From: Candidatus Kaiserbacteria bacterium
GTDB taxonomy: Bacteria; Patescibacteriota; Minisyncoccia; Phycocordibacterales; UBA2100
Length of the DNA: 64,000 bases
NCBI GenBank assembly: GCA_016186695.1
Contig: JACPLC010000005.1
Coordinates: forward strand, 852 to 64,851
Direction: 5' to 3'
Part shown: positions 40,592 to 62,664 of the stretch, piece after piece
Layout of the letters: each line of letters begins with the position of its first letter
Numbering within the stretch: the stretch's first letter is position 1
Notes under the pieces: generated by a model
What the model saw: the letters and a program-made list of their open reading frames with translations, nothing else
The model's database searches: none
What the model was told of the DNA's origin: nothing
Program-made: the position numbers and the translations under genes

Positions 40592-40663
40592 TCCGGGGTA
40601 ACTCAATGGTAGAGTGACTCCCTGTTAAGGAGTAAGTTGTGGGTTCGAGTCCCACCCCCGGAG
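40592..40663 (+). tRNA. tRNA-Asn (GUU); integration target of an island
   Basis: Acceptor TCCGGGG/CCCCGGA, anticodon loop CTGTTAA, T-arm GTGGGTTCGAGTCCCAC. Confidence 0.85.
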
Positions 40664-45829: not shown

Positions 45830-46765
45830 ATGGGACTCGATCCAGCACAGGGGTACAAAACGAGGCGTGGAAAGATGTTAATCGGCACTGCAGAAGATAT
45901 TCTCCGCTCTCCTGCAGCCAAGAGATACAAAGGTAAGATACAGCTCGTTTTCACATCACCACCCTTTCCGTTGAATAGGAAGAAGAAATACGGGAATCAT
46001 CAAGGGGAACGATACGTTGAATGGTTGGGAGATATGGCTCTTTTGTTGAAGGAGTACCTTACAGAGAATGGGTCAATCGTTATGGAGATGGGCAATGCGT
46101 GGCAACCTGGCGCTCCCGTCATGTCCACGTTGGCACTACGCTCGTTACTCGCTTTTCAGGACAAGGCAAATCTTCATCTCTGTCAGCAATTTATATGCTA
46201 TAACCCCGCTCGTTTGCCCGGCCCAGCGCAATGGGTTACGGTGGAGCGGGTTCGAGTAAAGGACTCTTTTACTCACGTTTGGTGGATGTCACCAAACGAG
46301 CGGCCCAAAGCCGATAATCGTCGGGTGTTAAAGGCTTACAGCAAAGCCATGTTGCAGCTGCTTGCCACAAAGAAATACAATGCCGGAAAGCGTCCTTCTG
46401 AGCATTCCATCGGTGCGAAATCGTTTCTGAAAAATAATGAGGGTGCTATTCCATCGAACGTCTTGACCTTGTCCAACACTCGAACCAACGACCAGTATCA
46501 GCTCTATTGTCGTACACACGGCTTGCAGGTGCATCCCGCTAGGATGCAAATGGATCTCGCAGATTTCTTCATCAAATTTCTGACAGAGCCGGGAGACCTA
46601 GTGTTGGATCCTTTTGCAGGAAGCAACACTACGGGGGCTTCCGCCGAGAGATTGAAACGTCGTTGGATATCGATAGAACCCAATCAAGAGTACGTGAAAG
46701 GTTCATATGGCAGGTTCGCAGAAGAAAACGAAAACAAAAAATATGACGACGCAAAATTTATTTAG
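45830..46765 (+). CDS. Beta-class DNA methyltransferase (N4-cytosine or N6-adenine)
   Basis: Motif IV VFTSPPF at the N-terminus and motif I DPFAGSNTTG near the C-terminus. This is the beta-class order, and SPPF favours m4C. Confidence 0.8.
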   Translation: MGLDPAQGYKTRRGKMLIGTAEDILRSPAAKRYKGKIQLVFTSPPFPLNRKKKYGNHQGERYVEWLGDMALLLKEYLTENGSIVMEMGNAWQPGAPVMSTLALRSLLAFQDKANLHLCQQFICYNPARLPGPAQWVTVERVRVKDSFTHVWWMSPNERPKADNRRVLKAYSKAMLQLLATKKYNAGKRPSEHSIGAKSFLKNNEGAIPSNVLTLSNTRTNDQYQLYCRTHGLQVHPARMQMDLADFFIKFLTEPGDLVLDPFAGSNTTGASAERLKRRWISIEPNQEYVKGSYGRFAEENENKKYDDAKFI

Positions 46766-49034
46766 CATCCTCTTGAAAGCCGACACGTGTGCCGACGTGG
46801 AGGCAGCGATTACTCAATTTGAGAATGAGCACTCTGCTGAATGTACGTGGGTTCCCGTTGGGAAAAAAGATAACAATTCCGGTCCAATCAATATTGCTGC
46901 GGATCCGGGACGTTCCCTTGTGGAGCGTCTAACCAACGCAGTGGACGCCGTTCTCGAACGTGAGCACGAAGTGCGCGGCGGAAGCCCCGTCTGTCGAACA
47001 CCGCGTGAGGCTGCAAGTGCATGGCTGGGTATCCCGTCTGGAGGTCTCAGTGAAATGACGCAGCAGGCTCGGCGTGATCATGCGAATAATGTGATCATTC
47101 GTATCACCGAGGGTGAAGGTAGCAGAGAGGCTCGAACTGTAGAAGTGAGAGATCAAGGAATTGGGATTACGCCCGATCGCGTACCGACTACCATTCTTAG
47201 CTTGAATGAAAGTAATAAATGGCAAAAGCATTATCTTGCCGGAACATTCGGGCAAGGAGGATCGAGTACGTTTGCGGCCTCAGACTACACTCTCATCGCA
47301 AGCCGATACAAGGACGAACCTGTCGTTGGGTTTACTGTGGTGAAGTATCGCGACTTACCCCCAGATCTATTTAAGACTGGCCATTATGTGTATCTCGTTC
47401 TCAACAGCGCAGTGCTTCAGGCGGAGATTCCCGTTGAGGAATTCACTCGCGGCACGTTAGTCAAACATTTCGGCTACGACCTCACTTCGTATTCATCTCC
47501 TTTAGGGCCAAATAGCATATACGGTTTGCTAAACCAAACGCTCTTTGATCCGATTCTACCAATCTGGCTGGATAGCCGAGTACACAACTACCGCCGTGTA
47601 ATCAAAGGCTCTCGTAACGCGCTAAATGGCGCACTCGACGAAGGAGATGAGGGTTCTGGTCCAAAACTGTCACACAGCGCGCGGATGTTCTACATAAATC
47701 TTGGGGAATTCGGACAAATCGGCGTTGAATATTGGGTGTTAGAACGACCGAGTAAACAGGACAAACGTCCGTCGGCGGCATTCGTGAACCCCACGAAACC
47801 AATCATCCTCACTATCAACGGTCAGAACCAAGAAGAGATGTCCGCACTGCTCATACGCAAAAATTCGGAATTGCCCTATCTCTCGCAACGATTGATTTGT
47901 CACGTTGATTGTAATGGCTTGCACGCCGATGCGAAACGCTCGCTCTTTTCCTCCACCCGAGAAGGTGCACGCCGGGGGCTCATACACGACCTCATACAAA
48001 AGGAGATTATTCGCATACTACGCTCGGATGACGAGCTTACCCGTCTCAATGAAGAAGCCCGCAAGCAAGGAGCACAGGAGATGGATCAAAATGCCGTACA
48101 GCAGATGCGAAAAGAAGTCGCCAGAATTCTACAGATGCAGGGAGTAAACGTAGGAGATATCGGCGGCCTTGAAGTATCGACTGGAGATGGGGGAGGGTTA
48201 GATCGACCTCGGAAACCGACTCCGCCACGGCCACCAGTCGTTCCTATACCTCTGAAGGAGCCACCAACGTATATAAAAATACTATGGGATGAGGGAGAGG
48301 AGATTCCTTTTCATCCCGAACAACGGCGGTATATAAGAATCGAAACAGATGCAGAAAGCCGCTATCACAGAGCAAACGCGGAATCATCGCCAACTAACTT
48401 CATTGTGTCTGGAGAAGGCCTCGTATTGAAAGGCACCACGTCGTTGCAGGGAGGCCGCATGCGTGCCGTTTTTGAAGCTTCACCTAACGCTGAAGTCGGC
48501 GAGGGCGGGACAATTCGCGTTGAAATGACACGAAAGGGCCTCCCGACACTTACGGATGAAAGAAAATTCAAATTTGTTGTGCCTCCGCCAGTTCGTCAAA
48601 GCGAAAGCAAGCTTACCTTGCCGCCCTTTAGAGTGCAGCCAGTAGAGGGACCCGAGGATGCTCGGTGGACGGGTTTAGGTTGGCCTGACGACATCAACAT
48701 TCTTGCTTCTTCAGCGGAAATGGAGAATGGCGAACTCGTTATTTATTACTCCACCGTATTTCCTCGCTTCGCTTCCGCAAGAACTGCCTTCGAAAATCGC
48801 GACGCCGCATTGGTTTCGTCGTTCATAAAGCGCTACGAAATCTGGCTCGCAGTTCATTCATTTCTCTGGCATCGAGATCAAAGTACAACAGAGCCCGCTA
48901 ATCAAACGGAAGAGATGATTGCCGCAGCCGAGGCGCATGAGCAGCAAGAACGCTGCCGCATAGCAACCCTCTCCACGCTCTTCGCATCACGTGAGGCAAG
49001 ATTTTCCCAGGCTCCGCTTGAAGAACACGAGTAG
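46743..49034 (+). CDS. Large GHKL-ATPase domain protein (MORC/paraMORC-like), candidate restriction/defence partner of the methyltransferase
   Basis: GHKL N-box (LTNAVDAV), G1 box (VRDQGIGI) and G2 box (GTFGQGGSS) in the first 200 aa, followed by about 550 aa with no recognised family. Overlaps the end of the MTase. Confidence 0.6.
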   Translation: MTTQNLFSILLKADTCADVEAAITQFENEHSAECTWVPVGKKDNNSGPINIAADPGRSLVERLTNAVDAVLEREHEVRGGSPVCRTPREAASAWLGIPSGGLSEMTQQARRDHANNVIIRITEGEGSREARTVEVRDQGIGITPDRVPTTILSLNESNKWQKHYLAGTFGQGGSSTFAASDYTLIASRYKDEPVVGFTVVKYRDLPPDLFKTGHYVYLVLNSAVLQAEIPVEEFTRGTLVKHFGYDLTSYSSPLGPNSIYGLLNQTLFDPILPIWLDSRVHNYRRVIKGSRNALNGALDEGDEGSGPKLSHSARMFYINLGEFGQIGVEYWVLERPSKQDKRPSAAFVNPTKPIILTINGQNQEEMSALLIRKNSELPYLSQRLICHVDCNGLHADAKRSLFSSTREGARRGLIHDLIQKEIIRILRSDDELTRLNEEARKQGAQEMDQNAVQQMRKEVARILQMQGVNVGDIGGLEVSTGDGGGLDRPRKPTPPRPPVVPIPLKEPPTYIKILWDEGEEIPFHPEQRRYIRIETDAESRYHRANAESSPTNFIVSGEGLVLKGTTSLQGGRMRAVFEASPNAEVGEGGTIRVEMTRKGLPTLTDERKFKFVVPPPVRQSESKLTLPPFRVQPVEGPEDARWTGLGWPDDINILASSAEMENGELVIYYSTVFPRFASARTAFENRDAALVSSFIKRYEIWLAVHSFLWHRDQSTTEPANQTEEMIAAAEAHEQQERCRIATLSTLFASREARFSQAPLEEHE

Positions 49035-49035
49035 T

Positions 49036-49710
49036 ATGAACGGAGAAAACGGAATCAACCGAGACATGATCTCCTACTACAAGGATCGTGCCCAAGAATA
49101 CGACAGAAAGGCGTACGACCCCCATGAACAACCCGAAAGACAAGCTGATATCAAGGAGGCCTCTCGGATACTTCAGGATGTTTTCACAGGCAAGAGTGTC
49201 CTCGAAATCGCAGCGGGACCGGGATTCTGGACCACGATAATCGCACAAGCAGCGAAGTCAATTACTGCAACCGACGTGAACGAAGCGGTCATCGATCTAG
49301 CCCGAAAAAAACAGTACCCTGAAGGCAAAGTGACGTTCCGTGTTGCCGACATGTACGCACTCGGAGACATGCCTCTACACGACGCATTGTTCGGAGGATT
49401 TATTTTCAGTCACATTCTCAAGCAGGACTACGACAAGTTTCTAGACGCCATCAATGGCTACGTCCGCCCCGGGGGGAGTGTGGTACTGATGGACAACAAC
49501 AGAACTCTTACTCCGAGACCGGCGGACAGGACTGATGAGCAAGGAAACAACTATCGGCTGCGAACACTCGAAGATGGAAGTAAACACGAAATCGTCAAGA
49601 ACTATCCAACCCAGGAGGAACTCAGGTCTGTGCTACGCAATCGCTCAACCGGTATGGATTTTAAGAACATGGAGCATTACTGGATTTTGACGTATCGAAC
49701 CAGTACCTGA
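49036..49710 (+). CDS. Class I SAM-dependent methyltransferase (paralogue 2)
   Basis: About 65% aa identity to the gene at 9361-10020. The start at MNGENG abuts the GHKL gene stop. Confidence 0.7.
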   Translation: MNGENGINRDMISYYKDRAQEYDRKAYDPHEQPERQADIKEASRILQDVFTGKSVLEIAAGPGFWTTIIAQAAKSITATDVNEAVIDLARKKQYPEGKVTFRVADMYALGDMPLHDALFGGFIFSHILKQDYDKFLDAINGYVRPGGSVVLMDNNRTLTPRPADRTDEQGNNYRLRTLEDGSKHEIVKNYPTQEELRSVLRNRSTGMDFKNMEHYWILTYRTST

Positions 49711-51086: not shown

Positions 51087-52889
51087 TCATGCACACATGC
51101 CCCCTCCTATGCCAAAGACATGTACCTGGACAGTGTAGGCACGTATTGCAGGTCGCGAACTGCTATAATCCAATCGACCGTCTTGAAGGCGCTTAGTTCT
51201 GAATGCGTCCAACGACCGGAGCAGAGCACCTGAAGTAGTCGGTAAATGACTGGGTCGGGTGTTAACAGAGGGCTTTTTTGAGGTTCGAGAATGTAATCGG
51301 ACTTCCGGAAGCTCTAACGGAGAAATTGGTGCAGGAATAGGCAAACCACCGCTTGGGACAACAGTTTCGGCGGTGTTTTGCATTGGTTCGAGAATTGCGT
51401 TGACCTTTGGCATCCAGTCAGCAAGGAAGCCGAAGGGTTTTGTGTACGATGGCACGACCTGTCCCTTGAGCACCGACACGCTGGAGAACGCATACGACAA
51501 GAGCAGTCGGCGTTCCTCCACGGTGGCTTTCTCACTATGGTAGATGTCCTGCGCACGCAAGGCAAGCTCGTGGATGGCGATACCGACCTTGTAATACTCC
51601 GTGTTGTCCGATTTGAGATTGTCGAGCGCCCCCACCAGACCTTCTTCTTCCTCGGTGAACTCTTTGAGCCGCTGGTCGTAAAACGGGACGGTAATCCTGC
51701 CGTCGAGCTTATCGTCGTACATCACACGCTTACGCTGCTGTATGCGCTCAAGGGAGTTGTTTATGGACTGCACCTGCGCGTCGTGGTATTCGATTTCCTC
51801 GCTGTGGCTCTCTTTGAGTGCCTTTGTGAGCACTGCAAGCACCTTCGCGCCACGAGGGGCTACAGCGACAGCGTGAGGCAACAGACGGGCTTCCAAGTCC
51901 TCCTGACGTATGTATTGCTTTTTCTCGCCCAGTTGGGCTTTACACTGCTTACAGCCGCCATACCACTGTCCCTTCTGCCGCTCCCACGTAACGGTTTTCT
52001 TGCACGCACCGCATAGCACCTTGCCCTGTAGCTCTTTGAGGTGCTTACCGTAGTACGGGCGCGGACGACCGCCATTCAGCTTCTCTCGAACCCCATCGAA
52101 CAGGTCTTTTGATATGAGCGGCTCGTGCTTCCCCTGATACAACACGTCCTTCCACAAAAACTTCCCGTAGTAAAACGGGTCTGAAAGTAGCCGGTGTACC
52201 GCGCTCTTTACCACCTTACTCCCGCCCCGACTGCGTAAGCCGAGAACGTACATTTTTTCAGTGAGCGCCTTGATGGAGTAACTTCCTGTTGCGTAGAGCG
52301 TGAACATCTGTTTGATGAGTGGAGCGACTTTCTCATCAACCACGTGGATTTTATGTCCCTTCTCACCGACGGACTTGTATCCCAGCGGCGGCTTCGTTGG
52401 CAGCCACCCCTGCGATATTTTTTCCTTCTGACCCTTCTGCACATTCTCTGACAACAATCTGACGTAATACTCGGCTGTAGCCACTTTTACACGCCACATA
52501 AACCATTCGTGCGATTTCGAGTTTTTGTGAAGCACGCACCCCTCTTTCGCGAGGTGTATCTGGTGATTTTCGTTCTCCATCAGCCACTGGTCAATGGCGG
52601 GTACATCGGCAAAGTTTCTAGTCAGGCGGTCTGTGGTCTCAACAATGATGACGGGGACTTTGCACTTACGCACATAGTTAAGCATTTCCTTGAAGGTCTT
52701 TCTGTCAATTTTACCGCTCGCACTTTCCGAAATCTGAAATACTTTCGAGATTTCGAAATTGTTTTCATTTCGCGATGCATATTCCTTCAAAAACTTCTCC
52801 TGTGCCGGAAGTGAATATCCCGTTTCTTCCTGCTCTTTTGAAGACACACGAGCGAATATAACAGCCAATGTTTTCTTTTTGGTTTCCAT
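51087..52889 (-). mobile_element. Large serine recombinase (second copy)
   Basis: AVIFARVSSKEQ catalytic region, a recombinase domain, a zinc ribbon (CGACKK...CKQCK) and a coiled coil; 600 aa. Confidence 0.85.
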
Positions 52890-53620: not shown

Positions 53621-54301
53621 CTACACTTTGATGACTTTGTATGCGGGATTTATGCGATACCCGCTATCTTTTTTTCCTTGAATGACCTCACCTCCATCAA
53701 TCTTGAGAAACTTTTTGATATTCTTTCTGATTTTAGCAATTTCGGTTCGTACCTGTTGCTTGTTCTTGCGTTCCAAACGCTCTGCAATCTCGCCAGTCAT
53801 ACGATACCCGTCGTTCTCGACAAGGTGGCTCAATATCCTGAACCTGTCGCTAGTAGCTTCCATCGCATAGCAGAGCTTGCCCTTCGGCTCGCACCAAAAG
53901 TTGCCGTCCTTATCAATATAAAGATGCGTTCCCGGCGGAGAAATTAACTTCTTTTCCCCGAACACCTTCTCCTCATATTCTTTGGCACGGGATAGAAAGT
54001 CCGTCGGGAATTGAATTGCCCAAGTGTCCTCCTGATACATATCTTCTTCGGCGGCGTCTTCTCTGCTATGGAATATTCTTCGCGTTATCAATCCCTGTTG
54101 CATAAATTGCTCTAGCACACGACGAATTTGCAGGTGATTGAGTTGGGCGACTTTTTCCAAGGCAGCGGCATCAAAATAGACGTAGTCGAATGGGATATAT
54201 CCAAGCTCGAACTCGTTCTGTAACACAGCGAGTATCGCAAGCAGTTTTTTACTCGCATCAGTCATAGTGGCTACAATACCTAACCTGCCAGTTTTTGCCA
54301 A
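53621..54301 (-). CDS. Putative winged-helix transcriptional regulator
   Basis: C-terminal OmpR-like wHTH pattern (GYRMTGEIAERLE...IRKNIKKFLKIDGGEVIQ...GYRI). Confidence 0.45.
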   Translation of the reverse strand: MAKTGRLGIVATMTDASKKLLAILAVLQNEFELGYIPFDYVYFDAAALEKVAQLNHLQIRRVLEQFMQQGLITRRIFHSREDAAEEDMYQEDTWAIQFPTDFLSRAKEYEEKVFGEKKLISPPGTHLYIDKDGNFWCEPKGKLCYAMEATSDRFRILSHLVENDGYRMTGEIAERLERKNKQQVRTEIAKIRKNIKKFLKIDGGEVIQGKKDSGYRINPAYKVIKV

Positions 54302-54313
54302 TCTGTATTACGA

Positions 54314-54514
54314 GTGATACACTTGCCGTCAATGGCAGAAAAAAACTACCGCATTGAGGATGCAAGGAAACTGCTTGGTGTGAGTGTGAGGTCTATGTAT
54401 CGGTACATCTCCGAAAAGAAGCTTCGGGCGACAAAAATCGGACACTGGCGTATCAGCGAGGCGGACATAAAAAGGTTCATTGCGGAGAGAACAAATATCA
54501 GGAAGCACAAATAA
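54314..54514 (+). CDS. Excisionase-family HTH (HTH_17-like) DNA-binding protein
   Basis: LLGVSVRSMYRYISEKKLRATKIGHWRISEADIKRF. Confidence 0.6.
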   Translation: MIHLPSMAEKNYRIEDARKLLGVSVRSMYRYISEKKLRATKIGHWRISEADIKRFIAERTNIRKHK

Positions 54515-54518
54515 GTGT

Positions 54519-54719
54519 ATGAAACACGACCACTGGGTAAACATTGAAGAAATCAAGCCGCCGATGGGCGAATTGAAATTTGCTGCCAAAGCTACGATAC
54601 ACGAAATCGGCAAGGGTGAAGTAGACCACGGTCTTGGAGAAGTGTGGGGCAAGACGCGGGAGGAAGCTACCCAAAAAATGAATGAGAAAATCAAGCAGTG
54701 GCTTGAGACACAACAATAA
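54519..54719 (+). CDS. Hypothetical small protein
   Basis: 66-aa ORF immediately upstream of mod. Confidence 0.3.
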   Translation: MKHDHWVNIEEIKPPMGELKFAAKATIHEIGKGEVDHGLGEVWGKTREEATQKMNEKIKQWLETQQ

Positions 54720-54721
54720 CT

Positions 54722-56510
54722 ATGGACGATAAGGAAATCGCACAGGAAAAAGAGAGGCAAATATTTCGACTTCAAAAGGAAAACGAAAAGCTAAAGAAAT
54801 CAATCAAGACCCAAAGATACGGGCTTGTTTGGGCGGACGTACCGGAAGCTTTCGATGATGATGTAGAAAACAAACTTCCTATATTTGAGGAAGTATCCAA
54901 GCTCGCAATAAAGAGCAAGGACGAAAAACCAACGCACATTTTGATTGAGGGTGATAACTATCACGCACTTACTTGTTTGAGCTACACACACAAGGGCAAG
55001 ATTGATGTCATTTACATAGACCCCCCCCTATAACACCGGCTCTGATGGTTTCCGCTACAAGGACAAACGTATTCTGGACAGGTATCCCGACGGCACAGAA
55101 GTACCAAAAGACCATCCATTCCGACACAGTTACTGGCTTTCTTTTATGAGCAAGAGGTTGGAACTTGCAAAAAGCTTGCTCAAAAAGAACGGGGCAATTT
55201 TTATTTCAATAAACGAAGATGAGTTCGCTCAACTCAAGCTACTGTGCGACCAAATATTCAATCCGGAAAACTATCTAGCGATGTTTACAATCAAGGTTCG
55301 ACACGAGGAGCGTATCCTCAAAGGCGATAAAGATTTTCACGAAGTTGTGGAGTACTTACTGATGTATCGGGCTAGTTCAGAATATAAAACGGTGAAAAAG
55401 ATTTACGATAACACTTCTCTCGACGAATATGTGTACCAAATAGTCGAAAAGACCAAGAGACCAAAAACAATCAAGCTCGGTAACAAAACCGTGGAGGTAT
55501 TCTCCCCTCAAGAATATGAGGTGGTAAAGGTGTCTTCGAACGCCAACAACCTAAAAAAGATAAACATTCGGGGTTCTATAAAGGAAGGCAACAGTAGTGG
55601 TCGTTTTTATATGGCTTACCTTGAACCGCTCAAAACAAAGGGCGTTTTATACAAAGTGTCCGATATGGGAAATGATAAATTCGGATACCGATATTTCCTC
55701 ACACCGATGAAGTTATCTCGCGTGAATGGTGATTACTTTCAGGGAGTGCCGTTGGGTATAAAGGATACGAAAGAAGTACCGTACCCGAACTATTTTGATT
55801 TTGAAAAGGACTTCAATTCAGTCGGCTATGAGGGTGGCGTTAATTTCGGTGGCGGCAAGAAACCCGTCAATTTTCTCAAGCGCATCATAGGTATCGGCTC
55901 TATGAACAAGTCGGCAGTGGTGCTGGACTTCTTCGCAGGTTCGGGAAGTACAGGAGAAGCGGTGATGAAAATGAACGAAGACGATAAGGGTACTCGCCAG
56001 TTCATTCTCATTACCAATAACTACGAACTCGTAAAAGATAAGGTCTATAAACCAATGGAGGAGGCGTGCTATCCTCGCATAAAAAATGTCATCAAGGGCT
56101 TCAATGGTAACAAAGGGGTTGGAAATTCTGCAAAGTACTACCGCACGGGGTTCGTCGGCAAACACAGTATCGCTGATGCAGATGATAGAGATAAGTTGCA
56201 ACTCGCGCATCACGCAGGAGAGATGCTTTCAGTTGCAGAAAATACACTTGAACTCGTGGAGGAAAATGAATACTGGCAAATCTTTGAGAGTAAAGACCTT
56301 TACACCGCCGTCTACTTTCGGGAGGAATACAACGAGTTTGATGATTTCATTGGTCGAGTTCGGAAGCTAAAAAAACCGGTATCCGTATATGTTTTTAGCT
56401 GGGAGGACGACCCATTCGTCGCGGATTTTGAGGACAATCCAAACATTACAGTAAAGACAATCCCGCAACCAATACTCGAAATCTATAAGCAAATCTATAA
56501 CCTCCTATGA
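54722..56510 (+). CDS. mod: Type III restriction-modification methyltransferase Mod, split by a frameshift at a poly-C tract
   Basis: N-terminal EGDNYHAL, then IYIDPP followed by a run of 8 C, after which YNTGSDGFRYKDKR continues in the +1 frame (ORF 55146-56510). Motif I DFFAGSGSTGEA lies near the C-terminus. With 7 C residues the protein would be a single product of about 596 aa. Confidence 0.8.
55021..55028 (+). repeat. Poly(C)8 homopolymeric tract inside the mod DPPY codons
   Basis: The sequence reads ata gac ccc ccc cta taa, which gives a premature stop. Seven C residues would restore gac ccc ccc tat aac acc (DPPYNT). Confidence 0.85.
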
Positions 56511-58897
56511 CCCTTGCGCCTCTCAAATTCCAAAGAGATGCCGTTGAAAATCTTACAGAGGTTTTTGTAAAGCTATGGAAGAAGACCGAAAGAAAACTAC
56601 CGATAGTGCTCAAATCTCCAACTGGTAGCGGCAAAACATTTATAACCGCCCTTTTAATTCGAGGTCTCAACCATCTACCGCAGTGGTCGGAAGATAAGGC
56701 GTTCATCTGGATTACCTTCAGCGATGAGATTGCAATGCAGAGCAAGGAAAAGTTCGGCAGATATTTTGAGAACAATCTCGAAAATAACACGCTTACCGTA
56801 CAGGACATCAATCGAGGCAAACTGTACGCAAACGATATTCTTTTCCTCAACTGGCAAAAAGTAGTCCAAGACAATGCGACTACCCGTCGTCTCAAATTAC
56901 GACGACCAGACAAGGAGGATGAAAGAAAAGAAAGTGGCAAATACTTTGAGGACTTTATCGAGGGTACTAAAGAAGAAGGACGAGAAATTGTCCTTGTTAT
57001 TGATGAGGCGCACAAGAACGTGGATACCGAGCTAGCACAACATATCGTATCAATGATAGACCCTAAAATTGTGCTTCACGTCTCTGCAACACCAGCTGAC
57101 GGCATAGTTGCAGAAGCCGCAGAACATAATAGCTTCGTTAAAGTAGACCGCGAAGAAGTCGTTGCAGAAGGACTTATCAAAGAGAGTATTGTTTTGCAGT
57201 CCGAAGAAGATTTGAAGAAAATGGGTGGTAAAGACCTTGATGAAGTTCTTCTGCAACTCGGAATAGACAAGCGAGAAACACTCGTAAAGGAGTACAAAAA
57301 ACTCGACAAAAATGTAAATCCTCTAGTTCTTATTCAGCTCCCGAACGACGACACTCGCCTTGTTGAAGCTGGCGAACGAACAAAAGAAGAAGTGGTGATG
57401 TCTTTTCTAGTCAAACAAGGCGTCAAGGAGCACAAAATTGCACGCTGGTTTGACGGGAAAAAGGAAAATATGGAGGGCATTACAGACAATGAAAGTGATG
57501 TCGATTTTATGCTTTTCAAGCAAGCCGCGGGTACGGGCTGGGATTGCCCGCGCGCATCCATTCTCGTGATGTTCAGAGAAATAACCTCAAACACTTTCTA
57601 CAAACAAACGGTCGGTCGCATCTTGCGAATGCCAGAACCACAGTTGAGAGACGATTACAAAAGCAGTCCTCTCCTTCGACGCGGCTACCTCTTCACCAAC
57701 TATCGGCGCAATCAGGTACAGATACCCGACCAAAATGACAACAATAAAGCCCAAACGCAGTCAGCGCACATCCGTTCCGGAGTACAAAACATTTCACTGC
57801 AATCCGACTACATTCCCCGTGTTGATTATGGCGACATTCCGCGCTCCTATAAATTCCAAGAAAGCTTCAGGAAATCGTTTGATGAGCATTTTGGTCTCGC
57901 GAAGGGCGACATACTCGGAAAGGCGCAGGAAAAATTAAAGAGTAAAAAACTTGACCTCGATGGCACTCTTCTGAACGCGATAGTAGCTGACGCCGAGTTT
58001 TCTGACTTCGACCAACTCGCATTCGAATTCGTGAAGAAAGGTAACGATGTTTCTCTTGAAATGTCAGTAAGCGATATTGAAAAGACCTTCAATTACCTCT
58101 GCTATCAGTTGCTCCAAGAACAGGAAGATGAACAGGCAAAATACGCTAACATTGCTCGTTCGTGGAGCGTCTTAAAATCAGCAATCCGTATCTGGTTCAA
58201 GGGCGTGCTGGGAGAAGATAGCTCATATTATTATCGCGTGTTCATCAAGGACATCCAAAAAGGTGCTGAAAGCGTGTTTCGACCTGCAATCACCAAAGCT
58301 CTCCGCGATTTCAAACCCATTGCACAGAAACTTATTGCTGACCGAAAGAAAGAGGTTGAGGAGAGAGAAAGTCCTGTCTTTACTGTTCAGTCAGAATATC
58401 AATACACAGACGACTATCGGGAAGTGCCGCAAAAACTTTGCGTCCTCGATACTTTCTATCTATTGTCTTCATATACTGGGCGCGATAACGAAATGAACTT
58501 CATCAAATACTTGGAGCAAAAGAAAGGAAAAATTGAATGGTGGTTCAAAAATGGCAATCAAGGCAAGGATTACTTCGCTGTTCGGTATATAAATTCGGAG
58601 ACGGGCAAAGAAGAACTATTTTATCCCGACTGGATTGTCCTTTTCAAGGACGGACGTATCGGCATATTTGACACAAAGAAAGGACGTACGGCTACTGATG
58701 CTGACACTGCCGATAAGGCAAGAGCTTTGCAAGCCAAAATAAAAGAATTCGGCAAAAAATATCTCGGCGGTATTGCGATTGAAGAAGCTGGTGTCTGGTA
58801 TTGCAACGATAGCTCCGAATACACATTCAAGGGGGGTCAGTCCGTCAATGACAGCAAGGGCTGGAAACCATTCGAGACGCTTTTTAATTATGTATGA
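56507..58897 (+). CDS. res: Type III restriction enzyme Res subunit (SF2 helicase plus nuclease)
   Basis: Walker A SPTGSGKT, DEAH box VIDEAH and later helicase motifs. ATGA overlap with the mod stop. Confidence 0.85.
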   Translation: MTLAPLKFQRDAVENLTEVFVKLWKKTERKLPIVLKSPTGSGKTFITALLIRGLNHLPQWSEDKAFIWITFSDEIAMQSKEKFGRYFENNLENNTLTVQDINRGKLYANDILFLNWQKVVQDNATTRRLKLRRPDKEDERKESGKYFEDFIEGTKEEGREIVLVIDEAHKNVDTELAQHIVSMIDPKIVLHVSATPADGIVAEAAEHNSFVKVDREEVVAEGLIKESIVLQSEEDLKKMGGKDLDEVLLQLGIDKRETLVKEYKKLDKNVNPLVLIQLPNDDTRLVEAGERTKEEVVMSFLVKQGVKEHKIARWFDGKKENMEGITDNESDVDFMLFKQAAGTGWDCPRASILVMFREITSNTFYKQTVGRILRMPEPQLRDDYKSSPLLRRGYLFTNYRRNQVQIPDQNDNNKAQTQSAHIRSGVQNISLQSDYIPRVDYGDIPRSYKFQESFRKSFDEHFGLAKGDILGKAQEKLKSKKLDLDGTLLNAIVADAEFSDFDQLAFEFVKKGNDVSLEMSVSDIEKTFNYLCYQLLQEQEDEQAKYANIARSWSVLKSAIRIWFKGVLGEDSSYYYRVFIKDIQKGAESVFRPAITKALRDFKPIAQKLIADRKKEVEERESPVFTVQSEYQYTDDYREVPQKLCVLDTFYLLSSYTGRDNEMNFIKYLEQKKGKIEWWFKNGNQGKDYFAVRYINSETGKEELFYPDWIVLFKDGRIGIFDTKKGRTATDADTADKARALQAKIKEFGKKYLGGIAIEEAGVWYCNDSSEYTFKGGQSVNDSKGWKPFETLFNYV

Positions 58898-59343
58898 AAC
58901 TCCTAACGGAAAAATTCGTCCAAGACAACATCATCGAATACCTATTCCGTAAGGGGTGGAGCAGAAATCTGCGGAGTAGGAATACTGACGAGCACGGCGT
59001 AGATATAAAGGTACGGAACAACAATTTTGCACGCTACTGGCTCATCGAGTGCAAGGGCGACGCCTCCAAGACAGCAAAGTATCCCCGCTCTCATCGTGAA
59101 GTATGCTTCAATCTCGCACTTGGACAAATCATCACGCGGATGAAAAGCGACGGGAAACGCGGCTATAAGTACGGGTATAAATATGGTGTCGGTTTCCCCG
59201 CGAGCTTCGAGGATTTGGTCGTCCGGCGCTTGCCGTCCAATGTCGCCGACAAGCTCAATCTTTATGTTTTCCTTGTAGATGGTAAAGGCAAGGTCGCACT
59301 CTATGACTGGAAAATGTTAAGAGTATTGCAATCCTCAAAATGA
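58894..59343 (+). CDS. Small PD-(D/E)xK-like (restriction endonuclease fold) protein
   Basis: GVDIKV ... YWLIECKG fits D ... E-x-K spacing. 149 aa. ATGA overlaps with both res and the OLD gene. Confidence 0.45.
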   Translation: MKLLTEKFVQDNIIEYLFRKGWSRNLRSRNTDEHGVDIKVRNNNFARYWLIECKGDASKTAKYPRSHREVCFNLALGQIITRMKSDGKRGYKYGYKYGVGFPASFEDLVVRRLPSNVADKLNLYVFLVDGKGKVALYDWKMLRVLQSSK

Positions 59344-60989
59344 AAATAACTCGACTGCTCATCAAAAACTTCAAGTCCTTCAAGTCAGAAAGGATAGATT
59401 TTCGCGGTTTGATGGCGTTCATAGGAGAGAACAATGCAGGAAAGTCGAACGTGCTAAAGGCGCTCGATTTGTTCTTCAAGGACACAAAGAAACTCGACGA
59501 GGAGTATTTCAACAACAGCGCAGAGCACATCGTCATTCAAGTTTGGTTCAATAATTTAAACGATGACGCGAAGGAAACATTTAAGAAATATCTGCTCGAT
59601 GACAACGAAACAGTAGTACTTAGAAAAGAGTATTCGTTCCACGACGAAGATATGACGTTTTCGGGCGTCATACTTGGTGATAAGTTAGATGCGAAAGATA
59701 AAAAGGATGCTGTAGAAATTCTCGATAAAACCGAGATAGAACCTTTCACCTCCACGGAAAAGACCTACTACTGGAAATCCAAACCGTTTGGCTGGTCAGC
59801 CATCGCAACCGGATATCTACCCGATTTTCTCTATGTCCCAGCAGTCAAAGACGCAAAAGAGGAGGTAAAAGTTGCAGACAAGTCGAGGTTCGGACAAATC
59901 ATAAATGCAATGCTTGGCAGCGTCCTCCAGAACGTTGATTTAGTACGCATCAACGAAGAGTTTACGAAACTTCTGATGGGTGAAAATTCTAATCAGGATG
60001 GGCGCATCGCGCAACTCAAAGAGTTTGAGACGATGTTGAGTGAAAAACTTTCCGCACAGATGCGTGGTACGACAATCAAGCTAGACATCACTCCACCAAC
60101 ACTGAAAGATGTTTTCCAGTCGGGTACAAAGATACTGGTAGATGATGGTGTCTCCACAGCAGTGGAAAATAAGGGGCACGGGCTACAGAGGTCGGTAATA
60201 TTCGTGATTTTTCGAGCATACGCAGACCTTCTTAAAAAGGAACAAGGCGAGAAAGCAAAAGCGCTCATATTTGGTATAGAAGAACCCGAGCTTTATCTGC
60301 ACCCCCAGATGCAGAGGTCAATGTTCAGCATCCTGAAAGAGGTTGCGCAAACAGACCAAGTAGTATTCACGACACACTCAAGCTTCTTCGTGGATATGGC
60401 TAACTATCAGTCAATAGGTATAGTCGTCAAGAAAGATATCGAGACAGGCACGAAAATCATCCAGCACCAAGAGGATATATTTCCGCAGAGCGAAGAAAAA
60501 AAGCAGTTTCGACTACTCACAGAGTTTGACCCAGAAAGAAGTGAACTTTTCTTTGGGAAGAAAGTTGTGCTAGTCGAGGGAGATACAGAGAAGGTGGTGT
60601 TACCGATTATCGCAACCAAAATCAATCCAAAATATGTCTTCTACGACTACGGTATTACCGTCGTTGAGTGTGCGAGTAAGGAAATGATGCCCTTCTTCGT
60701 GAAAGTGCTCAACGCTTTTCGTATCCCATACACCGCTATCTATGACAGCGACAATGCCAACAGCGAGGAAAGTAAAAGGATAGAAGCAGAGGTTGCATCA
60801 TCTGGCGGTATGGGGCGAACTGAAATCATTGAACCTGACTTTGAGAAAATGTGTGCCGGTGATGGAGTAGCTATACCAACTGGCGGCAGTAAACCCTTTA
60901 AGGCGTTCAAGTGTTTCAAGGAGCTTGAAGCGGAAAAGATACCGAAACGGCTCAGAGAAATCATCGAAAAAATCTTTACCGAAGCATAA
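59340..60989 (+). CDS. OLD-family ATP-dependent nuclease (ABC ATPase plus TOPRIM)
   Basis: Walker A GENNAGKSN, Walker B LIFGIEEPELYLHPQ, H-loop FTTHS and TOPRIM VVLVEGDTEKVVLPII ... YDSDN; 549 aa. Confidence 0.75.
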   Translation: MKITRLLIKNFKSFKSERIDFRGLMAFIGENNAGKSNVLKALDLFFKDTKKLDEEYFNNSAEHIVIQVWFNNLNDDAKETFKKYLLDDNETVVLRKEYSFHDEDMTFSGVILGDKLDAKDKKDAVEILDKTEIEPFTSTEKTYYWKSKPFGWSAIATGYLPDFLYVPAVKDAKEEVKVADKSRFGQIINAMLGSVLQNVDLVRINEEFTKLLMGENSNQDGRIAQLKEFETMLSEKLSAQMRGTTIKLDITPPTLKDVFQSGTKILVDDGVSTAVENKGHGLQRSVIFVIFRAYADLLKKEQGEKAKALIFGIEEPELYLHPQMQRSMFSILKEVAQTDQVVFTTHSSFFVDMANYQSIGIVVKKDIETGTKIIQHQEDIFPQSEEKKQFRLLTEFDPERSELFFGKKVVLVEGDTEKVVLPIIATKINPKYVFYDYGITVVECASKEMMPFFVKVLNAFRIPYTAIYDSDNANSEESKRIEAEVASSGGMGRTEIIEPDFEKMCAGDGVAIPTGGSKPFKAFKCFKELEAEKIPKRLREIIEKIFTEA

Positions 60990-61585
60990 CGTTCTTGAAT
61001 GTAATGTAAGTAGAGTTATGGCACATAGAAGAAGTAAGAAAAGCGAGCCACTCTCGGAGGAGACGATACAAGCACTGATACAACTCGGCGCAGTTTTACG
61101 ACCTGTCGTCAACCGTCTCGTAACCGAGGGAAAGGCGAAAGTAGTGAATGGAAAAATGATTTTCCTCACCAAAAATGCTAACGATTGAAGAAATCAGAGA
61201 CACCCTGCCGGATAGGGGCAAAGACCTGTCCGACGAGCAGCTCTTGAAGCTCCGCGATGATATGTACGGGCTTGCACAGATTTGTTTCGACGTATGGCTA
61301 GCCAAGAAAAATAAAAACGGAGTAAAATCGCAGGATGACGCATCGAACGACCGATGACATACCGGAGGACGAGGAGACCCGCCGCCTGATGCGCGAGCAC
61401 GAGGTGGATGCTGACACTGCCGAGAAAGCGCAGGAGCTTATTGACGAAGGAATGGACGAGGACGAAGCGATTGAACTTGCCGGCGAACTTTGATAGAGTA
61501 CACGCAATGCAACGGAGGAACTTTAGATAGCCGCCCGTAAACAGCCGCACGCCTTGCGGTTGTTTTGGGTGGCTTTTCTATTTTG

Positions 61586-61656
61586 CCTTCGTAGCTCAAC
61601 GGCAGAGCGCACCTCCGAAACGGGCGAGATGGTGGTTCAACTCCACCCGAAGGCAC
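61586..61656 (+). tRNA. tRNA-like gene with a non-canonical anticodon arm, possibly tRNA-Phe (GAA)
   Basis: Perfect acceptor (GCCTTCG/CGAAGGC), D-arm and T-arm (GGTGGTTCAACTCCACC). The anticodon stem has an A:C mismatch and the loop reads CCGAAAC, with C33 in place of U. Confidence 0.5.
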
Positions 61657-61659
61657 ACG

Positions 61660-61732
61660 CCCTCGTAGCTCAATGGACAGAGCGAGACGCTTCTATCGTC
61701 AAGGTTGCAGGTTCAAGTCCTGCCGAGGGCAC
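61660..61732 (+). tRNA. tRNA-Arg (UCU)
   Basis: Acceptor GCCCTCG/CGAGGGC, anticodon loop CTTCTAT, T-arm GCAGGTTCAAGTCCTGC. Confidence 0.8.
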
Positions 61733-62664
61733 TAGCTAATCGCAAACCTCTCCATCGTCTGAAAGACCCGCTCCGATTTCTCTTTCACCGAAGTTTCGTC
61801 GTCATACACGATGAGCATTTCCATCGAGCGGTGGCGGCTGAACTTCCGCACGTCCCGCACATCCATAGTTTTGAGTAGTTCGGTAATGTAGAAGTGCCGG
61901 AAGCCGTGCACTGTTTTCTCAATGCCAAGCTCTTTGCATAGCCCTCCAACCTCTCTTTTTATCGTCATCGTGCTCATCCGCTCGGTCTTCCGGTTGCCCA
62001 AGCTCCTGAACAACGCCCCATCGGTGAGTTTATGGATTTTCAGGTACTCCTTGAGCGCCTTGACCGTCGTCGGTGCGAGATAGATTGCTTCTTTATCATC
62101 CTCGCCCTTGCCCTGAACGTACGCGACCTTCCGGTGCAGTTTTACATCTTCCACGTCCAGCCGGACAATTTCAATCTGCCGTAGCCCTTGAAACGCCAAT
62201 AATGAAAACAGCGCCCGCAGGCGACTGTTTCTCGGCGTGTTTGGGAGATATTTGAGCTTCACGCCAAGCAAAAGTATTTCGTTATCAGTAAGCCCCTGCC
62301 GTCTATGTCTTTTCCTCTGTCTGAAAAACTTTACGCCTTGCACGACGCCAAGTGGTATCATCCCTCGCCGTTCCAACTCTTTGAGCAAGACCCTCGCCGT
62401 CGCAAGATATTTGTTTTTCGTGGACACGCTGTAGTCCGTGCGTTCGAGGTGTCGCTTGAACGACAGCAAGCTCTCCCGATTGAAGCCGTGCGAGTGAACG
62501 TATGAAAGAAAAAGACCTACCCGCGCGGAGTAGTCCTTTCTCGTGGTCTCGGAAACATCAAGACCGTCAAATATCCAGCCGGCGTTTGCCCTCGGCTTAC
62601 GTATGACGCTTGGTAGCTTCATTTTCATATTCGATGTGGACGACACGTAAGCCCTTCTCCTCAA
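61732..62664 (-). mobile_element. Tyrosine recombinase / phage-type integrase abutting the tRNA-Arg 3' end
   Basis: Catalytic C-terminus with R...HGFRHF...LIVYDD. The stop lies next to the tRNA 3' end. The true start is probably an internal Met (MKLPSV) at about 62622. Confidence 0.8.

What the first reader, a model, noticed from the sequence alone, without database searches (positions are those of the whole stretch)
54722..60989. Four-gene translationally coupled defence operon: Type III mod-res fused in series with a small PD-(D/E)xK-like protein and an OLD-family ATPase/TOPRIM nuclease
All three gene junctions are 4-nt ATGA overlaps (56507-56510, 58894-58897, 59340-59343), which implies one transcript with coupled translation. 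The first two genes are a canonical Type III restriction-modification pair. The OLD-family protein has Walker A/B, H-loop and TOPRIM motifs readable in the sequence. Known OLD systems occur alone (class 1) or with a UvrD-like helicase (class 2, Gabija); no helicase is present here. Its immediate partner instead is a 149-aa protein with D..ExK spacing typical of restriction endonuclease folds. I do not recognise an Old-like nuclease paired with a small REase-fold protein and hard-wired downstream of a Type III RM operon as a described system.
Basis: partly seen in the sequence, partly recalled or inferred. Interest (0 to 1): 0.8.

Follow-up and report, generated by a model that had tools for sequence, protein, structure and literature searches.

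The report
Stacked restriction, small nuclease and OLD genes
This is a compact operon on a mobile element of a Candidatus Kaiserbacteria genome that strings together three separable anti-phage modules (a Type III restriction-modification pair whose methylase gene is frameshifted, a small stand-alone restriction-fold nuclease, and a class 1 OLD nuclease); it is not a new dedicated four-gene system.

Summary
The ORFs and all three ATGA overlaps are real. The OLD protein is a class-1-type ABC-ATPase/Toprim nuclease. The 149-aa protein has a PD-(D/E)xK fold with invariant D37, E52 and K54.

Two corrections matter.

1. mod is not intact. A C8 run at 55021-55028 lies inside the catalytic DPPY motif and splits the gene into 103-aa and 454-aa ORFs. 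The same C8 is present in three independent assemblies. It is the only C or G run of 7 or more in the 64 kb window.

2. The small-protein/OLD pair is not conserved. None of about 120 non-redundant loci that encode the small protein has an OLD orthologue. In eight other contexts of the nearest OLD relatives (59-86% identity) the small gene is absent. One of them is a syntenic mod-res-OLD operon.

The small protein belongs to a family found mostly in CPR bacteria (264 clusters at 50% identity). Its genes sit at the tail of Type I, II, IIG and III R-M operons. Some members are fused to HARE-HTH or RAMA domains. The gene downstream of it is hypervariable (OLD, RloC-like AAA_13, KAP, Schlafen, caspase).

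Best reading: three modules stacked on a serine-recombinase element. A PrrC/PARIS-like "R-M guardian" role for OLD remains possible but untested. Moderate-to-low interest.

The parts
54332..54514 (+). HTH_17 (excisionase/MerR-like) small DNA-binding protein. It is the first gene of the co-directional cluster and is the likely regulator or excisionase of the element.
   Evidence: PHROG excisionase/regulator 2e-09. Pfam HTH_17 on the identical Logan contig. The same gene precedes the R-M genes in L002, L071, L074, L072 and L163. Promoter-like sites lie at 54248-54277 and 54295-54323.
54722..55033 (+). mod, N-terminal fragment (103 aa). It ends prematurely just after ...IDPP.
   Evidence: ORF list; sequence; called as 103 aa in three independent assemblies.
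55021..55028 (+). C8 homopolymer inside methyltransferase motif IV (DPPY). One base too many, giving a +1 frameshift. Candidate slipped-strand switch or inactivating mutation.
   Evidence: It is the only C or G run of 7 or more in 64 kb, and removing one C restores a 595-aa Mod. Identical in three assemblies. Six related mod genes encode DPPY with interrupted C runs.
55029..56510 (+). mod, remainder in the shifted frame: TRD plus motif I FFAGSGST at 55929-55952. The annotated ORF starts at the ATG at 55146.
   Evidence: On the repaired protein, Pfam N6_N4_Mtase 2e-29 and PADLOC MTase_III 3e-59; motif positions.
56507..58897 (+). res: SF2 helicase-like ATPase (SPTGSGKT aa 37-44, IDEAH aa 165-169) with a C-terminal PD...D-x-K nuclease motif (YPDW aa 706-709, FDTKKG aa 721-726).
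   Evidence: Pfam ResIII 1.2e-19 and PADLOC REase_III 1.6e-15; motifs; 74% identical to the res of L071. No sequence match in PDB.
58894..59343 (+). 149-aa solo PD-(D/E)xK nuclease-fold protein (D37, E52, K54). It is distantly Mrr_cat/NOV_C-like and belongs to an R-M-tail family found mostly in CPR bacteria.
59340..60989 (+). Class-1-type OLD nuclease: N-terminal ABC ATPase plus C-terminal Toprim.
   Evidence: Pfam AAA_15 and OLD-like_TOPRIM. PADLOC Old 6e-90. TsOLD 6P74 1e-28. 100% identical to an NCBI protein annotated 'ATP-dependent endonuclease [Candidatus Kaiserbacteria bacterium]'.
51087..52889 (-). Large serine recombinase at the left side of the low-GC segment. Probable integrase of the element that carries the operon.
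   Evidence: Pfam Resolvase plus Recombinase. GC is 43-46% across 54-61 kb against 52-58% over most of the window. Sister elements L001, L071 and L159 have the same layout.
61585..62664 (.). Right-hand context: tRNA-Phe and tRNA-Arg (+) followed by a tyrosine recombinase (-). The same tyrosine recombinase plus DUF488 flank follows OLD in L071 and L072.
   Evidence: Four of the five Logan loci stop at window position 61534 (the fifth at 61382), about 50 nt before tRNA-Phe.

Best explanation
The locus is a compact, probably single-transcript cargo operon of a serine-recombinase integrative element in a Candidatus Kaiserbacteria (CPR) genome. It concatenates three separable defence modules.

1. 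A Type III R-M pair. As assembled, mod is out of frame because of a C8 run in the DPPY motif. Type III Res depends on Mod for DNA recognition (established knowledge), so both methylation and restriction should be off, or reduced to whatever slippage restores (inferred).

2. A solo 149-aa Mrr/NOV_C-like PD-(D/E)xK endonuclease. It belongs to a family whose genes lie co-directionally at the 3' end of R-M operons of every type. Some members are fused to predicted modified-DNA readers (HARE-HTH, RAMA). It most likely acts as an autonomous DNA nuclease that supplements R-M, for example a minimal modification-dependent or break-processing nuclease (inferred).

3. A class 1 OLD enzyme, an ATP-driven Toprim exo/endonuclease that works as a self-contained module (shown for P2 Old and TsOLD, inferred here).

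The small protein and OLD are neighbours by modular assembly, not obligate partners. The 4-nt overlaps reflect genome compaction and co-expression, not a dedicated four-part machine.
For: - Domain identities.
- Frameshift.
- The small gene is an indel in an otherwise syntenic operon. L071 has HTH_17-mod-res-OLD, with Res 74% and OLD 86% identical, and the same right flank of tyrosine recombinase plus DUF488. There is no small gene, only 23 nt between res and old.
- OLD relatives occur in nine different contexts: after a NucS_C-like/DUF5655 gene (L074), after RmuC (L160), after a Type II R-M (L164), before DUF2130 (L159), beside divergent Type IIG or methyltransferase genes (L072, L163), or alone (L077).
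- Small-protein census: about 120 non-redundant loci, 0 with an OLD orthologue. 49 of 82 have a same-strand gene 50 nt or less upstream.
- Upstream genes are HsdR/HsdS/HsdM, ResIII, N6_N4 and D12 methyltransferases, Eco57I-type enzymes and DUF6997 REases.
- 62 downstream neighbours fall into 57 sequence clusters. They include RloC-like AAA_13, KAP NTPase, Schlafen-AlbA_2, caspase, NTP_transf_2 and HsdR.
- The family is almost entirely solo 130-160-aa proteins. The only fusions found are to HARE-HTH and RAMA, domains described as fused to restriction endonucleases of R-M systems (PMC4738411).
- Extra REase-fold nucleases attached to Type I and III R-M operons have been noted before (PMC3506569).
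- 107 of 837 old genes were already reported in lineage-specific operons, including defence operons (PMC6755086).
Against: - Three consecutive ATGA overlaps are tighter than the ~10% background, which would also fit functional coupling.
- In three of nine OLD contexts the gene directly upstream encodes a PD-(D/E)xK-type nuclease domain (window small protein, L074 NucS_C-like, L160 RmuC). This could be non-orthologous displacement of a real OLD partner.
- Seven of nine OLD contexts have R-M or methyltransferase genes within one to three genes, so a functional link between OLD and R-M is not excluded.
- My gene calls in fetched loci are crude (greedy longest ORFs). The Pfam census covered only 40, 30 and 30 neighbours.
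- The structural model is of medium confidence, with pLDDT below 50 for residues 30-48 around D37.
Confidence: 0.7

Rival explanations
1. R-M guardian model. OLD is functionally tied to the adjacent R-M as a second-line, abortive-infection-type effector. The same would apply to the other NTPase or effector genes found in the slot after the small gene. Like PrrC with EcoprrI, or PARIS with Ocr, the effector would be released when phage anti-restriction factors disable the R-M enzyme. The small nuclease might serve as adaptor or sensor.
For: - Seven of nine OLD-clade contexts have R-M or methyltransferase genes next door. Three are mod-res-(x)-OLD operons with divergent Mod and Res: L074 Mod matches the window Mod only locally (34-52% identity over about a third of its length) and its Res gave no blastp match, yet OLD is 72% identical.
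- The slot after the small gene holds RloC/PrrC-type AAA_13 ATPases three times, plus KAP, Schlafen and a caspase, all typical suicide effectors.
- PrrC and PARIS show that ABC-ATPase nucleases can guard R-M (PMC2610378, PMC10802264, PMC12707154).
Against: - OLD relatives also occur with no R-M (L077, L159).
- Adjacency to R-M is expected for any cargo of these defence-rich elements, and no control rate was measured.
- In this window the R-M partner is frameshifted.
- The small gene has no conserved neighbour on either side.
- No interaction data exist.
Confidence: 0.2
2. This is a dedicated, previously undescribed four-gene system in which the 149-aa REase-fold protein is the obligate partner of OLD (a new OLD class), hard-wired to Type III R-M.
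For: - Three ATGA overlaps.
- No PADLOC, Pfam or NCBIfam model matches the small protein.
- L074 has a different nuclease-like gene in the same position between res and old.
Against: - 0 of about 120 small-protein loci carry OLD.
- In the eight other OLD-clade contexts examined the small gene is absent.
- L071 is the same operon without it.
- hhalign finds no relation between the small family and the L074 middle gene.
Confidence: 0.05
3. The small protein is an XisH-like accessory factor of the element's large serine recombinase, controlling excision or integration as XisH does for XisF in Anabaena. On this view it is not a defence nuclease.
For: - 9 of 39 loci with at least 5 kb on both sides contain a serine recombinase. 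In about ten loci the small gene is directly convergent with one.
Against: - No Pfam XisH hit at E ≤ 1 in 33 members, whereas 22 hit Mrr_cat and 18 hit NOV_C.
- No XisI-like partner was seen.
- Most loci show no recombinase, and the gene is operonic with R-M genes.
- The fusions are to R-M reader domains.
Confidence: 0.07
4. The mod frameshift is plain decay, or an assembly artefact, rather than a switch. On this view the R-M half of the operon is dead and only the small nuclease and OLD are under selection.
For: - The C8 allele is fixed in every assembly seen.
- No C7 or C9 variant was observed.
- CPR phase variation at C tracts is undocumented, as far as I know.
Against: - res is full length and 74% identical to its L071 orthologue over 99% of its length.
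- The remainder of mod has no further stops over 1.48 kb.
- The tract is the only long C or G run in 64 kb and lies exactly where one slip toggles the catalytic motif, whereas relatives use mixed Pro codons.
- Homopolymer slippage is the usual switch for Type III mod genes (PMC12707154).
- An artefact is unlikely in three independent assemblies.
Confidence: 0.35

Closest known systems
Class 1 OLD nucleases (P2 Old; Thermus scotoductus OLD, PDB 6P74)
   Same: [quoted passage not shown]
- No UvrD helicase, reverse transcriptase or separate AriB partner.
- Best HMM hit is PADLOC 'Old' (300 bits), and the best PDB match is TsOLD at 1e-28.
- 549 aa, a class-1-like length.
   Different: - Class 1 genes are described as isolated genes not near other defence genes (PMC10568477). 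This clade sits in operons or islands with R-M in seven of nine contexts.
- Schiltz et al. did record 107 of 837 old genes in lineage-specific operons (PMC6755086).
Restriction-linked ABC-ATPase effectors: PrrC within EcoprrI, RloC, and PARIS (AriA/AriB)
   Same: - An ABC-ATPase-driven nuclease encoded in or beside an R-M locus.
- The slot after the small gene holds RloC-like AAA_13 genes in sister loci L001, L088 and L095.
- The idea of layered 'guardian' defence (PMC2610378, PMC12707154).
   Different: - The effector domain here is a DNA-type Toprim fused to the ATPase. It is not an anticodon nuclease (PrrC/RloC) and not a split AriA+AriB.
- No evidence of silencing by the R-M enzyme or of activation by anti-restriction proteins.
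- The R-M is Type III, not Type I.
Mrr_cat / NOV_C (DUF3883) type PD-(D/E)xK restriction nuclease domains, including the HARE-HTH- and RAMA-fused endonucleases of R-M systems
   Same: - D-x14-E-x-K catalytic signature, alpha-beta-beta-beta-alpha-beta core, and weak profile hits (Mrr_cat in 22 of 33 members, NOV_C in 18 of 33).
- About ten family members are fused to HARE-HTH or RAMA, the architecture described for R-M-associated endonucleases (PMC4738411).
   Different: - The window protein is a solo 149-aa domain with no reader or DNA-binding domain.
- It is below Pfam thresholds (Mrr_cat E = 0.11).
- No biochemical data exist for any member.
XisH (fdxN element excision controlling factor, PDB 2okf)
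   Same: - Similar size.
- Occurs on elements with large serine recombinases.
   Different: - No sequence-profile similarity.
- No XisI partner.
- Operonic with R-M genes rather than with the recombinase.
Phase-variable Type III mod genes (phasevarions)
   Same: A homopolymer tract inside the mod ORF whose length sets the reading frame (PMC12707154).
   Different: - The tract lies in catalytic motif IV rather than in the usual 5' repeat region.
- No length variation was observed in the three assemblies.
- The organism is a CPR bacterium, not a host-adapted pathogen.

Membership tests
Type III restriction-modification | Mod: beta-class N6/N4 methyltransferase, with motif IV (DPPY) upstream of motif I (FxGxG) and a TRD between them, as one intact ORF. 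| tested here: not met
   The motifs and their order are present only after deleting one C of the C8 run. As assembled, mod is split into 103-aa and 454-aa ORFs.
Type III restriction-modification | Res: SF2 helicase-like ATPase with a C-terminal PD-(D/E)xK nuclease, encoded directly after mod. | tested here: met
   Pfam ResIII 1.2e-19; PADLOC REase_III 1.6e-15; Walker A, DEAH, and the PD...DxK motif at aa 706-726; ATGA overlap with mod.
Type III restriction-modification | ATP-dependent cleavage that requires Mod-bound, inversely oriented, unmethylated sites. | not testable with these tools
   Biochemical property.
OLD family, class 1 | N-terminal ABC ATPase plus C-terminal Toprim in one protein. 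| tested here: met
   AAA_15 7e-42; OLD-like_TOPRIM 3e-17; motifs located.
OLD family, class 1 | Closer to class 1 exemplars than to class 2 (GajA). | tested here: met
   PADLOC Old 300.6 bits against a best GajA of 163. TsOLD 6P74 1.1e-28 against GajA about 3e-09.
OLD family, class 1 | Isolated single gene, not in an operon with partner genes. | tested here: not met
   Last gene of an overlapping four-gene operon. Relatives are variably operonic or alone.
Gabija (class 2 OLD) | Adjacent UvrD/PcrA/Rep-like helicase GajB. | tested here: not met
   No SF1 helicase ORF within the element. The downstream ORFs are 87 and 60 aa with no hits.
PARIS | Separate AriA ATPase and AriB (DUF4435 Toprim) genes. 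| tested here: not met
   A single fused protein. The AriA model matches only the ATPase part, aa 1-351.
Retron-associated OLD (class 3) | Adjacent reverse transcriptase and ncRNA. | tested here: not met
   No RT ORF nearby. NCBIfam retron_eff_Eco8 scores 62.7 bits against a cut-off of 250. An ncRNA was not searched for.
PD-(D/E)xK nuclease superfamily (Mrr_cat/NOV_C-like) | Catalytic D...(D/E)xK triad on a restriction-endonuclease-like alpha/beta core. | tested here: met
   [not shown]
PD-(D/E)xK nuclease superfamily (Mrr_cat/NOV_C-like) | Significant match to the Pfam family models. | tested here: inconclusive
   Window protein: Mrr_cat E = 0.11, below threshold. Across homologues the best NOV_C hit is 1e-05 and the best Mrr_cat hit is 0.025.
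XisH | Sequence membership in Pfam XisH and an XisI partner. | tested here: not met
   No XisH hit at E ≤ 1 in 33 members. No conserved neighbour of any kind. Only structural resemblance.
R-M guardian systems (PrrC/PARIS-like) | Effector held inactive by the R-M enzyme or a sensor, and triggered by phage anti-restriction factors. | not testable with these tools
   Only gene adjacency is available.

The most novel reading that the evidence does not exclude
In CPR bacteria there may be a real tripartite supermodule: R-M operon, then small PD-(D/E)xK protein, then an interchangeable suicide effector. In this reading the highly conserved small nuclease (63-88% identity among the 120 closest homologues, which come from several candidate phyla) is the common hub. 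It would couple the state of any R-M enzyme, or the DNA ends it makes, to whichever effector follows. The effectors seen are OLD here, and RloC-like AAA_13, KAP NTPase, Schlafen or caspase elsewhere. This would be a generalised, plug-and-play version of the PrrC-EcoprrI guardian principle. It would also define a new context class for OLD nucleases.
Probability: 0.1. Interest if true: 0.7.

Novelty: new member of a known kind. Interest (0 to 1): 0.3.

Why it matters
The locus is a clear example of how streamlined CPR genomes pack independent immune modules into one overlapping operon on a mobile element. It therefore cautions against reading tight gene overlap as proof of a dedicated multi-protein system.

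Three smaller points may be useful to specialists.

1. An unannotated, well-conserved small restriction-fold family (264 clusters at 50% identity) habitually trails R-M operons of all types. It is absent from Pfam, PADLOC, NCBIfam and PHROGs.

2. A class-1-type OLD clade is usually embedded next to R-M systems. This differs from the textbook statement that class 1 OLD genes are isolated.

3. A homopolymer sits exactly in the DPPY motif of a Type III mod gene in a CPR bacterium. If its length varies, that would extend phase-variable R-M to this radiation.

Tried and rejected
- Sequence search of the small-protein profile against PDB found only a chance Csy4 hit at E = 0.95.
- The single sequence gave no significant hit (E ≤ 0.01) in Pfam, NCBIfam, PADLOC or PHROGs; the best were PADLOC PDC-M02A at E = 0.038 and Pfam Mrr_cat at E = 0.11. 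Across homologues PADLOC gave only weak mREase_II hits, best 0.007.
- tblastn of the small protein against PLSDB plasmids and INPHARED phages gave no match.
- IMG/VR gave one distant small-protein homologue and no OLD relative, so a phage origin is not supported.
- hhalign of the small family against the L074 NucS_C-like/DUF5655 protein showed no relation.
- A search for att-like repeats or a duplicated tRNA-Asn fragment bounding the element found nothing. The only result was an isolated 17-nt repeat.
- Sigma-70 promoter and terminator scans showed no enrichment over shuffles. They are of doubtful relevance in CPR.
- The AFDB50 fold library was unavailable.
- Gabija, PARIS and retron assignments were considered and rejected.
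- The idea of a recurrent ~270-aa partner downstream of the small gene was rejected, because those proteins do not cluster.


Full report
**1. What is in the sequence**

On the + strand, ORFs at 56507-58897 (796 aa), 58894-59343 (149 aa) and 59340-60989 (549 aa) follow one another with ATGA start/stop overlaps. The preceding ORF 55146-56510 overlaps the first of them in the same way.

In my crude gene calls, about 10% of same-strand junctions are 4-nt overlaps. That is 117 of 1193 in the fetched CPR loci, and 5 of 47 in the window including these three. Three in a row therefore marks a tight operon.

The segment has 43-46% G+C against 52-58% over most of the window. To its left lie a large serine recombinase (51087-52889, minus strand), a 226-aa minus-strand ORF without hits, and an HTH_17 excisionase-like gene. 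To its right lie two short ORFs without hits, tRNA-Phe and tRNA-Arg (61585-61732), a tyrosine recombinase and a DUF488 gene.

The OLD protein is 100% identical to an NCBI protein from 'Candidatus Kaiserbacteria bacterium'. The window is therefore from a CPR/Patescibacteria genome.

**2. The mod gene is frameshifted**

It is not. The ORF from 54722 ends at 55033 after ...IDPPL*.

The sequence reads ATAGA-CCCCCCCC-TATAACACC. With seven C it would encode D-P-P-Y-N-T, the catalytic motif IV of N6/N4 methyltransferases. Removing one C gives a 595-aa protein that matches N6_N4_Mtase (2e-29) and PADLOC MTase_III (3e-59).

The C8 run is the only C or G homopolymer of 7 or more in the 64 kb window. It is present, within 100% identical sequence, in Logan assemblies of three different runs. 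A sequencing artefact is therefore unlikely.

Six related mod genes encode DPPY with mixed proline codons, such as GAC-CCA-CCC and GAT-CCT-CCA. The uninterrupted tract is peculiar to this allele.

The rest of mod and the whole of res are free of further stop codons. Res is 74% identical over 99% of its length to its orthologue in L071.

Homopolymer slippage is the classical on/off switch of Type III mod genes (PMC12707154). No length variant was seen here, so a switch and recent inactivation remain open alternatives.

Type III Res needs Mod to recognise DNA (established knowledge). The assembled allele should therefore be phenotypically R-M-off without being toxic (inference).

**3. The OLD protein**

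- Pfam AAA_15 (7e-42) and OLD-like_TOPRIM (3e-17) cover the protein.
- Walker A, the signature-like GHGLQR, Walker B/D-loop, H-loop and the Toprim E and DxD motifs are all present.
- The best PADLOC model is 'Old' (6e-90, 300 bits, nearly full length). The best GajA model scores 163 bits. AriA matches only the ATPase half.
- The nearest solved structure is the class 1 Thermus scotoductus OLD 6P74 (1e-28), against GajA at about 3e-9.
- No SF1 helicase, reverse transcriptase or separate Toprim gene is nearby.

It is a class-1-type OLD and not Gabija, PARIS or a retron effector.

**4. The 149-aa protein**

It has at least 381 homologues. The 120 best are 63-88% identical, and those that carry a name are from CPR lineages. 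D37, E52 and K54 are invariant.

AlphaFold2 with 33 sequences gave pLDDT 71 and pTM 0.69, with an alpha-beta-beta-alpha-beta core. The catalytic loop region, residues 30-48, is poorly modelled.

- Foldseek also ranks XisH first, with probability 0.98 and TM about 0.5.
- By sequence, 22 of 33 members give weak Mrr_cat hits and 18 of 33 give NOV_C (DUF3883) hits, best 1e-5. None hits XisH.
- A profile search of 1.84 billion representatives found 264 clusters at E ≤ 1e-3, and the listed hits are almost all 130-160-aa solo proteins. Eight of the ten longer members I scanned are fusions, seven to HARE-HTH (N- or C-terminal) and one to RAMA/DUF4357.
- HARE-HTH and RAMA are described as fused to the endonucleases of R-M systems and are proposed readers of modified DNA (PMC4738411, PMC11037411).

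The protein is best described as a solo Mrr/NOV_C-like restriction-nuclease domain.

**5. Is the small+OLD pair conserved? No**

Small-protein census. I fetched 59 loci from one-genome-per-species contigs and 80 from metagenomes. After removing duplicates, about 120 loci remained. None has an OLD orthologue anywhere in the flanks.

- The small gene usually lies a few nucleotides downstream of a same-strand gene (49 of 82 loci with enough upstream sequence).
- A Pfam census of upstream genes found Type I HsdR/HsdS/HsdM, ResIII, N6_N4 and D12 methyltransferases, Eco57I-type enzymes, DUF6997 REases and DndB.
- Mod-res-small arrangements recur in L031, L148, L154 and L157.
- The downstream gene is hypervariable. 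62 neighbours fall into 57 sequence clusters.
- Among the close homologues sampled, the downstream gene is RloC-like AAA_13 (L001, L088, L095), KAP NTPase (L084), Schlafen-AlbA_2 (L079), a caspase (L137), NTP_transf_2 (L085) or HsdR/ResIII (L028, L039).

OLD census. Nine contexts of the OLD clade (59-100% identity) are listed below.

| Locus | OLD identity | Arrangement |
|---|---|---|
| Window | 100% | HTH_17-mod-res-small-OLD |
| L071 | 86% | HTH_17-mod-res-OLD, no small gene, same tyrosine recombinase/DUF488 right flank |
| L159 | 85% | OLD followed by DUF2130, no R-M |
| L072 | 80% | OLD alone beside a divergent Type IIG R-M |
| L074 | 72% | HTH_17-mod-res-(NucS_C-like+DUF5655)-OLD |
| L077 | 71% | Alone, in a complete Nomurabacteria genome |
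| L160 | 69% | RmuC-OLD |
| L164 | 65% | D12 methyltransferase-RE_SacI-OLD |
| L163 | 59% | Divergent methyltransferases, OLD, GmrSD |

The two genes are thus independent modules that happen to be adjacent here.

**6. Mechanism**

Shown:
- Domain content, the overlaps and the frameshift.
- Modular distribution of the small gene and of OLD.

Inferred:
- The genes are co-transcribed from upstream of the HTH_17 gene.
- The R-M module is currently off or slippage-dependent.
- The small protein is an active metal-dependent DNA endonuclease that works on its own. Related fused forms suggest targeting of modified DNA.
- OLD acts as an ATP-dependent Toprim exo/endonuclease, as shown for P2 Old and TsOLD (PMC10568477, PMC7049728).

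A guardian role for OLD is plausible from the recurrent R-M adjacency and from the RloC-like genes in the same slot. In that role, OLD would be activated when anti-restriction factors disable the R-M enzyme, as for PrrC or PARIS (PMC2610378, PMC10802264, PMC12707154). It is untested, and OLD relatives also occur without R-M.

**7. Comparison with the literature and novelty**

- Reviews state that class 1 OLD genes are single genes not close to other defence genes (PMC10568477). The original survey already listed 107 of 837 old genes in lineage-specific operons, including defence operons (PMC6755086).
- Additional REase-fold nucleases and other toxin-like domains attached to Type I and III R-M operons were described in general terms in 2012 (PMC3506569).
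- My literature searches found no description of this small family or of an OLD/Type III operon in CPR bacteria.

The locus is a new member of known kinds of system, not a new system. What is mildly new is the unannotated small family, the R-M-embedded OLD clade, and the DPPY homopolymer.

**8. Limits**

- Gene calls in fetched loci are simple longest-ORF calls.
- The Pfam censuses sampled 30-40 neighbours each.
- No control rate of R-M adjacency was computed.
- The structural model is of medium confidence.
- No multimer prediction or read-level data were available.

Noticed in passing
window 40592-42147: A second large serine recombinase (514 aa, minus strand) has a 3' end that runs into tRNA-Asn (40592-40664). 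The same recombinase-abutting-tRNA layout occurs in L071 (tRNA-Ala) and L001 (tRNA-Ser). This suggests a family of tRNA-targeting serine-recombinase elements in CPR bacteria, and tandem accretion of elements across about 40.6-61.5 kb of the window.
   Followed up: partly
window 45830-49034: An N6_N4 DNA methyltransferase (311 aa, SPPF motif) overlaps the start of a 775-aa protein that has no Pfam hit. This may be a second R-M-like or other defence pair in the same island. It is followed by a SAM methyltransferase (48991-49710) and an XRE-HTH/ImmA-type M78 peptidase pair (about 49.8-51.0 kb).
   Followed up: partly
window 61534 (just before tRNA-Phe at 61585): Four of the five independent Logan loci that carry the operon stop at exactly this position (the fifth stops at 61382). 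The longest contig (16,563 bp) would start near window position 44,970, where G+C also drops. This could be an element boundary or population heterogeneity. No att repeat was found.
   Followed up: partly
window 58697-58713 and 61407-61423: A 17-nt exact direct repeat (GATGCTGACACTGCCGA) brackets the res 3' end, the small gene, OLD and the two short ORFs. There is no extended similarity around it. It may be chance (rough expectation about 0.01-0.02) or a recombination scar.
   Followed up: partly
L074 8123-9004 (also L075, L076): In the Adlerbacteria mod-res-x-OLD operon, the gene between res and OLD encodes a 293-aa protein with a NucS_C-like nuclease region (E = 1e-4) plus DUF5655. It overlaps OLD by 4 nt and is unrelated to the small family by hhalign. 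A DUF5655-like ORF also follows the small gene in L149.
   Followed up: partly
L001, L088, L095, L084, L079, L137, L085 (gene after the small-protein homologue): The slot directly downstream of the small gene holds RloC/PrrC-type AAA_13 ATPases (three loci), a KAP NTPase, a Schlafen-AlbA_2 protein, a caspase-like peptidase or a nucleotidyltransferase. This is a hypervariable effector slot next to R-M operons.
   Followed up: partly
P0267, P0269, P0277, P0296, P0270, P0281, P0305, P0247: Rare members of the small family, 220-240 aa long, are fused N- or C-terminally to HARE-HTH or to RAMA/DUF4357 domains.
   Followed up: yes
L022, L024, L025, L128-L131, L134, L143, L149: In a subfamily of small-protein homologues at roughly 50-57% identity (Saccharibacteria and relatives), the gene is directly convergent with, or adjacent to, a 430-460-aa serine recombinase. 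The distance is often only -4 to +3 nt.
   Followed up: no
window 54519-54719 and 60925-61357: Short ORFs flank the operon. One of 66-79 aa lies between HTH_17 and mod, and two of 87 aa and 60 aa lie after OLD. None has a hit in Pfam or PHROGs, and all are conserved in the identical Logan contigs.
   Followed up: no
record titles (e.g. L007, L010, L015): Several contigs that carry the family are labelled 'uncultured Gammaproteobacteria' or 'Acidobacteriaceae', although they have CPR-like content. One of them is the very contig (CAYVOI010000001.1) on which one search found P0002. The labels look like placeholders or mislabels, so the taxonomic spread outside CPR may be overstated.
   Followed up: no
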